Shown piece after piece: positions 38,601 to 41,600 of a stretch of DNA of 64,000 nt. Each line of letters begins with the position of its first letter. Within the stretch, counting starts at the first letter, position 1. The stretch is taken from NCBI RefSeq assembly GCF_041248615.1, contig NZ_CP158426.1, one strand, 5' to 3'. A program made the position numbers. The DNA comes from Escherichia coli (lineage in GTDB: Bacteria > Pseudomonadota > Gammaproteobacteria > Enterobacterales > Enterobacteriaceae).

Positions 38601-41600
38601 CTGGCTCCAGCCGTCCTGGCCGTATGGCAGAAGATCTGGCTGCACTGAATGCGCCTGTTCCGGCTGAATTCTGGGCAGAAATGCGCCGTCAAAATCTGGT
38701 TGCGGAAAACGCTCCGCTGCCGACCCGTTAATCAACCTGGTGAGAAAACGATGAAACTGGATCTGACAGGTAAAGTCGCGGTGGTCAGCGGCTCAACCTC
38801 CGGCATTGGGCAGGGTATCGCCGCCGGACTGGCAAAAGCAGGCGCAACGGTGGTTGTCGTCGGCCGTAAACAGCGCGGCGTTGATGACGCCATGGCAGCG
38901 ATTGCGACACAAACTCCCACGGCGTCACTGCGTGGCGTGGTGGCCGATCTCAGCACCGAAGACGGCGTGGCTGCGCTGATCGCTGCAGTCCCAACGGCTG
39001 ATGTGCTGGTCAATAATCTGGGCATTTTCAACGATAAAGATTTCTTTAGCGTTCCGGATGATGAGTGGATGCAATTCTATAACGTCAACGTCCTTTCCGG
39101 CGTTCGTCTGGCGCGTCACTATGCGCCAGGCATGACGGAACAGGGCTGGGGGCGGATTATCTTTGTCTCGTCCGAATCCGGCGTGGCAATCCCTGGCGAC
39201 ATGATCAACTACGGCGTCACCAAAGCCGCGAATCTGGCGGTCTCTCATGGTCTGGCGAAACGACTGGCGGGGACCGGTGTGACCGTCAACGCCATTCTGC
39301 CAGGGCCAACCTTTACCGATGGCCTGAAAGAGATGCTGGCGGATGCCGCTGCACAATCGGGACGCAGTGCGCGTGAACAGGCCGATGAGTTTGTTAAAAC
39401 CTCGCGTCCGAGCTCCATCATCCAGCGTGCGGCGGATGTGGAAGAAGTGGCGAATCTGGCGGTTTATCTCGCGTCACCGCTTTCCTCGGCAACCACAGGG
39501 GCAGCCCTGCGCGTCGATGGCGGCGTCGTCGACACCCTGACAATGTAACCCTATAAATTAAGAGAAAATTATCATGGCTAAAACAACTGTATCGATCGAA
39601 ATTCCGGCTTCTGCCGACGCCGTATGGCAATTGATGGGCGGCTTTGATGCGCTGCCAGACTGGCTGCCGTTCATCCCGAAAAGCGTAGTGACAGAAGGCG
39701 GTCGCGTTCGTTCGCTGACAACCTCTGACGGCGGCACTGTGGTTGAACGTCTGGAAGCGTTTGATAACCGTCAACGCAGTTATACCTATTCCATTATTCA
39801 GGCACCGTTCCCGGTGGTGGATTACCTCTCCACCATTACCGTTCATGAAACCGCCGACAGCCAGGTTTCCCGTGTGGAATGGTTCGGTGAATTCACCCCG
39901 GTGAATGTGACGAACGAAGAGGCCGAAGCGCTGTTTACCGGCATCTATCGGGATGGTCTCAAGGCGCTGAAGGACAACTTTGTTGCCTGATGCGATCGAC
40001 AGGCGTCGGAACGTCCGGCGTCTGATTATTAACAAAAACAGAATAGTCTATTGTCATTTGTATCATTTATGTTATCAGGCAGCAGGCGTATTCTCTTCCC
40101 ATCGCGTTAATAAACGCCAAACAATTAAGACACTCTGGAATATAAACATGAAAACGATCATCGCAATTTTTACAGCTTCTCTTTTCTCTGTCGCGGCGTT
40201 TAACGCATCGGCGCAAAGCGTAACAGCAACCGGTACAACACTGGATTCTGCGGAAGCAGTTATTGCGCAGAAAGCGAAAGAGATGAACGCCTCTGAATAC
40301 AAAATCACCAGCGCTCGCATGGGCAATACCGTCACCATGAGTGCCGAACTGTACAAATAACCGCGCAAGGGACCCATTACGTAATTTGCTAAATATGCGC
40401 TGAATGCGTTGCCATTAAAAAACCGTATTGTAATGCCACCGATGACACGTTCCCGTGCGGGTGACGTTACGACTGACATGATGGCGGACTATTACGCGCA
40501 GCGCGCCAGTGCAGGACTTATCATCAGCGAAGGTACGCAAATCAGCAGAAGCGCTGCGCATAATTTTCCACGGCACGCTGATTTACTCCGGTAAATACAC
40601 CAAAGCGCGCGCCGAAGCAGACTGTCAGATTTGATTGCATTCTGGCTACGCAACCGGTCGGTTGGAGTATGAAGTTGCTCACGAATAGCCTTAGCATCCG
40701 CAATTTCGTAGCGGGTCACCCGTACAGGTTCTTTCTAATCTCGACAGTCTCTTCCAGAGAGGTTTTCAACTCATCAAAAAACTTATTTTATACCTCGCCT
40801 TTGAGCCGTTTCGTCACGGTTATCTCTGCTCCCCCATCATCTCCCGCACTAGCTCCACGCAGCGCAGGAAACGGCTGTCATAATCGTCCTCTTCAACCCG
40901 CACGAATTCGATATTGTTCTCTTCCAGCATCTCCACCAGCAAGTTCTGGAACTCTTTGCGATCCACCGAACTGCCGAGGCTGCGTAAACCATCCGCCACC
41001 CACGGCGTGTTGTTCTCCAGCAGGATCACCAGATCGAAACGGTATTCATCAATCAGCGCCTGCACGAACGGATGCTCACGCCCTTCGTACTTTTTGCAGA
41101 ACGCCTGGGTAGTGACAAAATCAGTGTCAATAAACGCCACTTTATTGGCGTATTTCACTGCAAAATCAATGTATTGAGCGTGGCCCAGCGCGATTTTATC
41201 GTAGTCGGAATACTGCAATGCAATCTCATCACCGCCGAGGTGTGAAAAGACATAATCGCGACCATATTCCCACGCACTGGTGGTATTGAAGATATTGGCA
41301 AGTTTGTTTACCAGGGTGGATTTACCGCTCGACTCGCCGCCAAGGATCGCCACGGTACGCACAAAGAACGGCTTCACTTCCGTAGGAATATATTCCCAGT
41401 AGCGGAACGGGTTTTCGCGGATCTGCGCACCGCTGATACTCATAAAGGTACGTTTCGGATCGACCAGTACCGTCTCGATCCCCAGATGTTCCATATACTG
41501 TGGCGCATCGGCTTCTTCCGAGGTGTAGATCAGGTCCGGCTGGATCCCCTTTTCAGCCATAAACTTTTTGATGCCGTTGCTCCACACATCCCAGCCGTGC

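What the first reader, a model, noticed from the sequence alone, without database searches (positions are those of the whole stretch)
40385..40594. Truncated OYE-family reductase marks a deletion scar at the nadR-proximal edge of the islet
About 60 codons matching the N-terminal FMN-binding region of Old Yellow Enzyme family proteins (LKNRIVMPPMTR...YYAQRASAGLIISEGTQIS) remain. There is no ATG start and the frame then diverges and stops, leaving about 225 bp of non-coding sequence before nadR. The islet was probably larger and has been eroded.
Basis: seen in the sequence. Interest (0 to 1): 0.3.

Follow-up and report, generated by a model that had tools for sequence, protein, structure and literature searches.

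The report
Decayed alkene reductase pseudogene at islet edge
This is the dead remnant of an Old Yellow Enzyme (alkene reductase) gene at the edge of a small E. coli gene islet; it lost its start codon, its middle and its tail through separate mutations, which is an ordinary case of gene decay that standard annotation already flags as a pseudogene.

Summary
Window 40379-40617 is what remains of a 365-codon OYE-family alkene reductase. The gene is intact, directly after the same DUF1471 gene, in cryptic Escherichia ("E. coli" E69, E. marmotae/ruysiae) and Yokenella.

The start is mutated (ATG>ACG) and codon 2 is TAA. A 686-bp internal deletion at 40546|40547 removes codons 59-287, including the catalytic His/Asn/Tyr. 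Another 71 bp of OYE (nt 861-931) follow in a shifted frame, and the 3' end is missing.

The "non-coding 225 bp" consists of that OYE piece, a phage-P2 "Z-region"-type inverted repeat (40613-40672) and the 5' stump of nadS (40673-40786, minus strand). The islet sits inside nadS.

The erosion idea is supported. Of 482 carrier genomes among 5426, 42 keep about 50 more bases of OYE plus a 0.65-1.5 kb cassette (GNAT, wHTH+TauE or DUF2846). The other 440, including this window, share one deletion between two CGAAG repeats.

No E. coli genome has an intact copy at this position. Substitutions are near-neutral (19 non-synonymous : 9 synonymous, against 15:80 in neighbouring genes).

Verdict: an ordinary, already-annotated pseudogene. 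The cassette hotspot beside it is the more interesting feature.

The parts
36600..36636 (-). 3' stump of nadS (about codons 80-91 plus the stop) at the ettA-proximal border of the islet
   Evidence: tblastn against LF82 NadS gives TLKENSAFFRGL vs TIKENPAFFREL; DNA alignment with LF82; coordinates
36635..36659 (.). Possible 25-bp inverted partial copy of the border repeat (weak evidence)
   Evidence: 84% over 25 bp to the distal part of the L103 copy of the element, E=0.019 in a search of the whole window
36669..40360 (.). Intact part of the islet: LysR regulator (36700-37587, -), aldo/keto reductase (37721-38731, +), SDR (38751-39548, +), SRPBCC (39574-39990, +), DUF1471/BhsA-like (40148-40360, +)
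   Evidence: ORFs; PGAP annotation of the identical record; 97.6% identity to E69; purifying selection, 15 non-synonymous: 80 synonymous
40379..40384 (+). Destroyed start of the OYE gene: ATG>ACG (40379-40381) and codon 2 TTA>TAA (40382-40384)
   Evidence: Alignment with intact genes of E69, Yokenella and E. whittamii; both changes are shared by all 12 E. coli alleles examined
40379..40546 (+). OYE remnant, nt 1-174 of the ancestral gene (codons 1-58), with a 6-bp deletion between 40454 and 40455
   Evidence: Pfam PF00724 E=5.8e-10; alignments; coordinates
40546..40547 (+). Junction of the 686-bp internal deletion (ancestral nt 175-860, codons 59-287); blunt, no microhomology; shifts the frame
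   Evidence: blastn against E69: 10979|11666; junction sequences; the same junction in all 12 alleles; 0 of 482 carriers cover at least 80% of the gene
40547..40617 (+). OYE remnant, nt 861-931 (codons 288-310, ...EALRIIFHGTLIYSGKYTKARAE), read in a shifted frame
   Evidence: 98.6% identity to E69 11666-11736; translation; tblastn
40613..40617 (.). CGAAG microhomology at the second deletion (OYE nt 927-931 fused to the CGAAG in the hairpin of the border repeat); this is the edge scar
   Evidence: Junction comparison with cassette-bearing strains L085, L087 and L089; 440 genomes share the junction
40613..40672 (.). Remnant of a P2 'Z-region'-type right inverted repeat, with the 5' half of its inner hairpin deleted
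   Evidence: 79% over 58 bp to the annotated 'right inverted repeat' of phage P2-EC58, AJ512683.1 (E=1.2e-9 against the window); the family occurs in 1485 of 5426 genomes, always beside variable cargo
40673..40786 (-). 5' stump of nadS (about codons 1-39): start ATG>ATA (40784-40786), a 1-bp deletion, and a 10-bp deletion between 40735 and 40736
   Evidence: DNA homology to K-12 and LF82 nadS begins at 40673-40684; tblastn; PGAP 'NadS family protein, frameshifted' pseudogene in sister strains
40787..40819 (-). Spacer between nadS and nadR; it possibly holds the last ~9 codons of the lost RelE/ParE toxin gene (weak evidence)
   Evidence: VTKRLKGEV* vs LF82 toxin LTKLLKGEI*, E=0.16; LF82 layout
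40820..42073 (-). nadR, a core gene whose 3' end faces the islet

Best explanation
Window 40379-40617 is a non-functional relic of a class I Old Yellow Enzyme (alkene reductase). This gene was the last in a horizontally mobile redox cluster: LysR, aldo/keto reductase, SDR, SRPBCC, DUF1471, OYE.

In E. coli the cluster lies inside the small antitoxin-like gene nadS, between ettA and nadR. There, the OYE gene ends at about nt 981-990 against the inner tip of a phage-P2 'Z-region'-type inverted-repeat cassette site.

Shown steps:
- Every E. coli copy shares the lost start (ATG>ACG), a stop at codon 2, and a 686-bp frameshifting internal deletion. That deletion removes codons 59-287, including the catalytic His183/Asn186/Tyr188.
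- In the lineage of this window, a further deletion between two CGAAG pentamers removed OYE nt 932 to about 985, a small cargo cassette, and half of the repeat's hairpin. What was left of the OYE gene was thereby fused to the repeat and the nadS stump.
- The relic has since drifted neutrally.

Inferred steps:
- The gene was already truncated when, or soon after, the cluster was joined to the cassette site, so selection never maintained it in E. coli.
- The donor was a cryptic-clade Escherichia or a shared source.
For: - Intact orthologue directly after the DUF1471 gene in E69 and Yokenella.
- Lesions mapped base by base.
- 482 of 5426 E. coli genomes carry the relic and none carries an intact gene.
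- The right-end variants add up exactly: 440 with the window junction, 20 GNAT, 21 wHTH+TauE, 1 DUF2846.
- Cassette-bearing strains keep contiguous extra OYE sequence, so the window form must be derived by deletion.
- Substitutions are 19 non-synonymous: 9 synonymous in the relic against 15:80 in neighbouring genes, Fisher p=3e-7, with 2-3 times the polymorphism density.
- Alleles differ by indels, frames and ORF lengths of 50-77 aa.
- E. whittamii carries an independent 642-bp deletion with different breakpoints.
- The islet is 97.6% identical to E69 while the core flank is only about 92%.
- The border repeat is homologous to the annotated P2-EC58 right inverted repeat.
- PGAP annotates a pseudogene here.
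Against: - No expression data were available, so a regulatory or small-peptide role is made unlikely by sequence evolution but is not excluded by experiment.
- The order of the shared lesions (start loss, 686-bp deletion, 3' truncation) cannot be resolved, because all carriers share them.
- The exact OYE/repeat junction (nt 981-990) is blurred by similarity between the two sequences.
- The match of the inner 'left tip' to the P2 left repeat is weak (17 of 26 bases). The left-border copy is also weak (E=0.019).
- Only complete RefSeq genomes were surveyed. An intact copy at ettA-nadR could exist among draft genomes.
Confidence: 0.9

Rival explanations
1. Simple edge truncation. One deletion from the nadR side removed everything after codon ~60, and the rest up to nadR is anonymous non-coding DNA.
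For: The ORF does stop at 40594 and the 3' end of the gene is missing.
Against: Window 40547-40617 is 98.6% identical to OYE nt 861-931, so the break after codon 58 is internal. The edge deletion is a separate event at 40617|40618. The remaining DNA is a P2-type repeat and a nadS stump.
Confidence: 0.03
2. The remnant encodes a functional small protein, the 61-aa TTG-start ORF at 40409-40594, which some GenBank submitters annotate as a hypothetical protein. It would be retained by selection.
For: The ORF is open in many strains and appears in protein databases, e.g. P0001 on 119 contigs.
Against: ORF length and frame vary among strains (50-77 aa; P0006 reads through in another frame). The non-synonymous to synonymous ratio is about 2.1, near the neutral expectation, against 0.19 in neighbouring genes. 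There is no promoter-like site or known RNA family. The ORF's C-terminal 15 residues are frameshift read-through across a deletion junction. PGAP rejects it.
Confidence: 0.03
3. Dead on arrival only. All damage happened in the donor or at integration, and nothing has eroded since, so the islet was never larger in E. coli.
For: Start loss, the TAA codon, the 686-bp deletion and the truncation near nt 985 are shared by every carrier examined.
Against: 42 carriers retain extra OYE bases plus cassettes that the other 440 lack, and the 440 share a microhomology junction. Lineage-specific 6-bp deletions and point changes also exist. Erosion therefore continued inside E. coli.
Confidence: 0.04

Closest known systems
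SYE1 of Shewanella oneidensis (PDB 2GOU), and NemA / PETN reductase: class I Old Yellow Enzymes (alkene reductases)
   Same: The intact orthologue (E69, 365 aa) aligns end to end with SYE1 at E=2.8e-138, and with NemA and PETN reductase at about 1e-100. It has the PPMTR motif and the HGANGY active-site motif. The window keeps codons 1-58 and 288-310 of that protein.
   Different: The window copy lacks the start codon, codons 59-287 (all catalytic residues and most of the barrel) and codons 311-365. The intact orthologue scores just under the NCBIfam NemA cut-off (396.4 against 403 bits). It is therefore a NemA paralogue, not nemA itself.
Inverted-repeat-bounded variable 'Z-region' (TO region) of P2-like coliphages (GenBank AJ512683.1). 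The associated paper, Nilsson et al. 2004, Mol Biol Evol 21:1, is cited in PMC3448106 but could not be read here.
   Same: Window 40613-40672 is homologous to the annotated right inverted repeat. As in P2 prophages, unrelated cargo genes sit immediately beside the repeat. The inner tips form hairpins.
   Different: There are no phage genes at this locus. The site lies inside nadS. The left repeat is largely replaced by the 4-kb redox cluster. In the window, the cargo and half of the hairpin are deleted.
NadS with a RelE/ParE-family toxin, downstream of nadR (E. coli LF82), and the truncated nadS of K-12
   Same: The same chromosomal slot between ettA and nadR. The window keeps both ends of nadS. 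Full-length NadS matches NCBIfam NF041265 at 182.6 bits. K-12 nadS expression is reported in PMC12350097.
   Different: In the window, nadS is split by the islet, has lost its start codon and is frameshifted. The toxin gene is absent.
The same six-gene redox cluster in cryptic Escherichia clades (yhiN/yhiM locus), Yokenella regensburgei and other Enterobacterales
   Same: Same gene order and 82-98% DNA identity.
   Different: OYE is intact there and the genomic location differs. E. whittamii has its own 642-bp in-frame deletion in the gene.

Membership tests
Old Yellow Enzyme family (Pfam PF00724, Oxidored_FMN) | Significant sequence match to the family profile | tested here: met
   The N-terminal fragment scores E=5.8e-10, 39.4 bits (cut-off 27), covering profile positions 12-65 of 342. 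The fragment shares 94-96% protein identity with the intact E69 gene.
Old Yellow Enzyme family (Pfam PF00724, Oxidored_FMN) | Complete (beta/alpha)8 barrel of about 340-370 residues in one open frame with a start codon | tested here: not met
   Only codons 1-58 and 288-310 remain. The start is ACG, codon 2 is TAA, and there is a frameshift at 40546|40547.
Old Yellow Enzyme family (Pfam PF00724, Oxidored_FMN) | Active-site His/His(Asn) pair and proton-donor Tyr (HGANGY in the orthologue: H183, N186, Y188) | tested here: not met
   The motif lies within the deleted codons 59-287.
NemA subfamily (NCBIfam NF007899), tested on the ancestral intact gene | Score at or above the curated cut-off of 403 bits | tested here: not met
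   The E69 orthologue scores 396.4 bits. Its best solved relative is SYE1, not NemA.
Pseudogene (unitary gene relic) | Disabling lesions relative to an intact orthologue in conserved synteny | tested here: met
   Start loss, a premature stop, a 686-bp frameshifting deletion and a 3' truncation, all relative to E69 and Yokenella genes in the same position after the DUF1471 gene.
Pseudogene (unitary gene relic) | Relaxed selection compared with neighbouring genes | tested here: met
   19 non-synonymous: 9 synonymous against 15:80, Fisher p=3e-7. Polymorphic-site density is 0.08-0.13 against 0.035-0.052.
P2 Z-region-type inverted-repeat cassette site | Homology to the annotated right inverted repeat | tested here: met
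   79% over 58 bp to AJ512683.1 1743-1833, E=1.2e-9 against the whole window. Cassette-bearing strains match over 68 bp at 76-81%.
P2 Z-region-type inverted-repeat cassette site | Unrelated cargo genes directly adjacent to the repeat in different genomes | tested here: met
   DUF2846, GNAT, or wHTH+TauE cassettes at this locus. Different cargo lies beside the repeat in P2 prophages and other islands.
P2 Z-region-type inverted-repeat cassette site | A partner (left) inverted repeat on the other side of the cargo | tested here: inconclusive
   A 34-nt inverted repeat at 76% flanks the cassette in L089 and L085, but a chance pair of similar strength occurs in the same region. The tip matches the P2 left repeat at 17 of 26 bases. 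The left-border copy has E=0.019.
P2 Z-region-type inverted-repeat cassette site | Recombination activity at the repeats (cassette exchange mechanism) | not testable with these tools
   Needs experiment. The proposing paper (Nilsson et al. 2004) is not in the held library.
NadS family (NCBIfam NF041265), for the flanking stump | Full-length 94-aa HTH protein with a start codon | tested here: not met
   LF82 NadS scores 182.6 bits. The window retains about codons 1-39 and 80-91 only, with ATG>ATA and two frameshifting deletions.

The most novel reading that the evidence does not exclude
The most novel reading left open concerns the border repeat, not the pseudogene. The hairpin-tipped repeat at 40613-40672 belongs to a dispersed family found in 1485 of 5426 E. 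coli genomes. It always sits beside variable cargo, in P2 prophage hotspots and in phage-free chromosomal sites such as this one. It could be an autonomous recombination site that lets small gene cassettes, and perhaps the whole redox cluster, be swapped in and out independently of any phage. If so, the OYE truncation and the edge scar would be by-products of that activity.
Probability: 0.25. Interest if true: 0.5.

Novelty: already known. Interest (0 to 1): 0.15.

Why it matters
The relic itself matters little. It is a textbook example of stepwise gene decay, and PGAP already flags it. Its value is as a marker. The lesions shared by all 482 carriers show that the ettA-nadR islet had a single origin in E. 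coli. The nested right-end variants record continuing erosion. The junctions also show that the islet sits inside the nadS antitoxin-like gene, next to a P2-type cassette site whose cargo differs between strains. This may be useful for work on how phage 'hotspot' cassettes move into chromosomal sites, since how cargo is exchanged there is not settled (PMC9122126 offers only a speculative recombination model).

Tried and rejected
- A 50-aa query to the large protein search returned only short proteins and no full-length orthologue. The orthologue was found instead by anchoring on the neighbouring SRPBCC gene.
- I first read 40620-40667 as diverged nadS codons 43-68, from a weak tblastn extension. 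I rejected this once that stretch proved to be a copy of a dispersed repeat, homologous to the P2-EC58 right inverted repeat.
- The inverted repeat reported by the repeat finder (34 nt, 76%) is no stronger than a chance pair in the same region. The repeat claim therefore rests on homology to an annotated feature, not on that statistic.
- I looked for a direct-repeat or target-duplication reading of GCGGACTG at both islet borders. The hairpin symmetry makes orientation ambiguous, so this is unresolved.
- Rfam (only SNORD89 at E=0.44, which is noise) and the promoter and terminator scans gave nothing.
- NZ_CP089930.1 (E69) is not in the annotated E. coli collection.
- Nilsson et al. 2004 and Odegrip et al. 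2006 are not held. The 2026 preprint on P2/P4 hotspot swapping does not mention repeats or hairpins.
- No microhomology was found at the 686-bp deletion junction.

Full report
**Identity of the window.** The window is E. coli chromosome. Positions 36500-40900 are 100% identical to NZ_OW967178.1 and NZ_LT599825.1. The local order is as follows:
- ettA (+, 34877-36544)
- an islet: LysR regulator (-), aldo/keto reductase, SDR, SRPBCC, DUF1471/BhsA-like (all +)
- the finding
- nadR (-, 40820-42073), radA, serB

ettA and nadR are convergent, so the islet faces the 3' end of nadR. The islet occurs in 482 of 5426 complete E. coli genomes. Islet-free strains have one of two layouts. K-12 types carry ettA, nadS (55 aa), nadR. 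LF82 types carry ettA, nadS (94 aa), a RelE/ParE-family toxin gene, nadR.

**Checking the observation.** It matches Pfam PF00724 at E=5.8e-10, above the curated cut-off. PGAP annotates 40433-40549 as a partial pseudogene, named 'alkene reductase' in some strains.

**Finding the intact gene.** I anchored a species-wide scan on the neighbouring SRPBCC protein. It recovered the same LysR-AKR-SDR-SRPBCC core cluster in 14 Enterobacterales loci. A full-length OYE gene lies directly after the DUF1471 gene in 'E. coli' E69 (365 aa) and in Yokenella regensburgei (366 aa).
- The E69 protein aligns end to end with Shewanella SYE1 (PDB 2GOU, E=2.8e-138), and with NemA and PETN reductase at about 1e-100.
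- It scores 396.4 bits on the NCBIfam NemA model, whose cut-off is 403. It is therefore a NemA paralogue of the class I OYE type.

**Anatomy of the relic**.
1. The ancestral ATG is ACG at 40379-40381, and codon 2 (TTA) is TAA at 40382-40384.
2. Window 40379-40546 corresponds to nt 1-174, with a 6-bp deletion between 40454 and 40455.
3. At 40546|40547, 686 bp are missing (nt 175-860, codons 59-287). The junction is blunt and shifts the frame, which is why 'the frame diverges and stops'.
4. Window 40547-40617 is 98.6% identical to nt 861-931 (...EALRIIFHGTLIYSGKYTKARAE), now read in another frame.
5. Homology to OYE ends at 40617, so the last 167 nt of the gene are absent.

The catalytic H183/N186/Y188 motif (HGANGY) lies in the deleted part.

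**Distribution of the lesions.** A search with the intact E69 gene found 482 E. coli genomes with a match, and none covering 80% of the gene. All 12 alleles aligned share ACG, TAA and the identical 686-bp junction. The 6-bp deletion and many point changes are lineage-specific. E. whittamii carries an independent 642-bp in-frame deletion with a 4-bp CGCG microhomology and keeps the complete 3' end. The gene has therefore been inactivated at least twice.

**Neutral evolution.** Among 11 E. coli alleles compared with E69, the relic shows 19 non-synonymous and 9 synonymous variants, at 0.08-0.13 per site. The SRPBCC, DUF1471, SDR and AKR genes together show 15 and 80, at 0.035-0.052 per site. Fisher p=3e-7. 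Database translations of the leftover ORF vary from 50 to 77 aa, with indels and a frame switch. The refuting condition, a conserved small protein, is not met. No promoter-like site, terminator-like site or Rfam family is present.

**The edge scar.** The right side of the relic varies among carriers.
- Strain 48 continues in OYE to about nt 985 and then carries 0.93 kb with a DUF2846 gene.
- 20 genomes carry a GNAT gene there.
- 21 genomes carry a winged-HTH gene plus a TauE/SafE exporter gene.
- 440 genomes have the window's direct junction.

These counts sum to 482. The cassette-bearing forms contain extra OYE bases contiguous with the relic, so they are ancestral and the window form is a deletion derivative. 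The window junction ...GCCGAAG|CAGACTG... lies between CCGAAG (OYE nt 926-931) and TCGAAG at the right border of the cassette. This is a 5-bp microhomology deletion of about 0.73 kb relative to a GNAT-type ancestor, or about 1.6 kb relative to the equally compatible wHTH+TauE type.

**What lies between the relic and nadR.**
- Homology to nadS of K-12 and LF82 begins at 40673-40684.
- The stump 40673-40786 (minus strand) covers about codons 1-39. Its start is ATA, and it has a 1-bp and a 10-bp deletion.
- About 12 C-terminal codons of nadS survive on the other side of the islet at 36600-36636.

The islet therefore sits inside nadS.

The intervening 40613-40672 is not nadS. It is a copy of a dispersed 70-90-bp element found in 1485 of 5426 genomes, at 1-4 copies each. 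The element always lies beside variable cargo:
- between cargo and the tail-sheath gene in P2-like prophages;
- between gpD-adjacent cargo and ogr in P2-like prophages;
- next to an integrase gene;
- next to a VbhA antitoxin gene.

It is homologous to the feature annotated 'right inverted repeat' in the Z-region record of phage P2-EC58, AJ512683.1. The match to the window is 79% over 58 bp, E=1.2e-9. The inner tips of these repeats fold as 8-11-bp hairpins, and the window's deletion removed the 5' half of one.

In cassette-bearing strains, OYE ends against a sequence resembling the inner tip of the P2 left repeat (17 of 26 bases). A 25-bp partial copy lies at the islet's left border (E=0.019). 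Both matches are weak, and I report them as tentative.

**Origin.** Intact copies (P0121, 99% identical to E69; source names E. marmotae and E. ruysiae) lie next to yhiN on the side facing a DUF2776 gene that I take to be yhiM (gene name from memory), not at ettA-nadR. E69's core flank is about 92% identical to E. coli, whereas the islet is 97.6% identical. This indicates horizontal exchange of the cluster among Escherichia lineages. Every E. coli copy is truncated at the same point against the cassette site. I therefore infer, but cannot show, that the gene was disabled at or near the time of integration, and that selection never maintained it in E. coli.

**Comparison with known systems and verdict.**
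- As a sequence, the relic derives from an OYE-family gene. As a gene, it fails the family's defining features: complete barrel, active site and open frame.
- It is a pseudogene that the standard annotation pipeline already recognises.
- The neighbouring P2-type repeat and nadS have also been described. AJ512683.1 is annotated, and Nilsson et al. 2004 is cited in PMC3448106. Expression of nadS is reported in PMC12350097.
- The finding is therefore real, correctly located, partly misread, and ordinary.
- The only feature with some wider interest is that a phage-hotspot-type cassette site operates at a phage-free chromosomal locus. How cargo is exchanged at P2 hotspots is not settled; PMC9122126 offers only a speculative recombination model.

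Noticed in passing
window 40613-40672; also L103 2487-2575, L104 3001-3072, L105-L111 around 2501-2585: A dispersed 70-90-bp, hairpin-tipped repeat, homologous to the annotated 'right inverted repeat' of the phage P2-EC58 Z-region. It occurs in 1485 of 5426 E. coli genomes. It always sits beside variable cargo, both in P2 prophage hotspots (tail fibre/tail sheath, gpD/ogr) and in phage-free sites.
   Followed up: partly
window 36600-36636 and 40673-40786: The whole islet lies inside nadS, a small HTH antitoxin-like gene. LF82-type strains keep an intact nadS with a RelE/ParE toxin. K-12 keeps a 55-aa nadS truncated by REP-like sequence. The ettA-nadR gap therefore holds a decaying toxin-antitoxin module with at least three states.
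   Followed up: partly
L085 6301-7233; L087 1557-2208; L089 9078-10557: Three unrelated cassettes occupy the same slot between the OYE relic and the repeat: a DUF2846 gene (1 genome), a GNAT acetyltransferase gene (20 genomes), and winged-HTH plus TauE/SafE exporter genes (21 genomes). In the E. coli collection, each is found only at this locus.
   Followed up: partly
L007 10803-11263 (Escherichia whittamii): An independent 642-bp in-frame deletion in the same OYE gene, with a 4-bp CGCG microhomology. It leaves an open 151-codon frame with an intact start and stop. In this species the islet is in a different genomic context from both E. coli and E69.
   Followed up: partly
L006 (CP089930.1, 'Escherichia coli strain E69'): The core flank (pitA, dtpB, yhiN, uspA) is only about 92% identical to all 5426 E. 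coli genomes, so the record labelled E. coli is a cryptic Escherichia clade. Its islet is nevertheless 97.6% identical to the window's. A 1965-aa helicase-like ORF to the right of the islet has no match in the E. coli collection.
   Followed up: partly
L005 (JAIJJM010000574.1, 'MAG: Collinsella sp.'): A 2.1-kb contig binned as Collinsella carries the E. coli islet edge (SRPBCC 100% identical, window-type junction, nadR). This is almost certainly a mis-binned E. coli contig.
   Followed up: no
hits H5/H6 (NZ_CM144245.1, NZ_OZ392432.1): Two records carry an IS200C insertion inside the islet, between the SDR and SRPBCC annotations.
   Followed up: no
window 36669-40360 and loci L008-L018: The LysR-AKR-SDR-SRPBCC core is conserved across Trabulsiella, Yokenella, Klebsiella, Yersinia, Raoultella, Ewingella, Serratia and Providencia. 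The DUF1471 and OYE genes are present, moved or absent in different species. OYE is thus an optional accessory of the cluster, which fits its tolerated loss in E. coli.
   Followed up: partly
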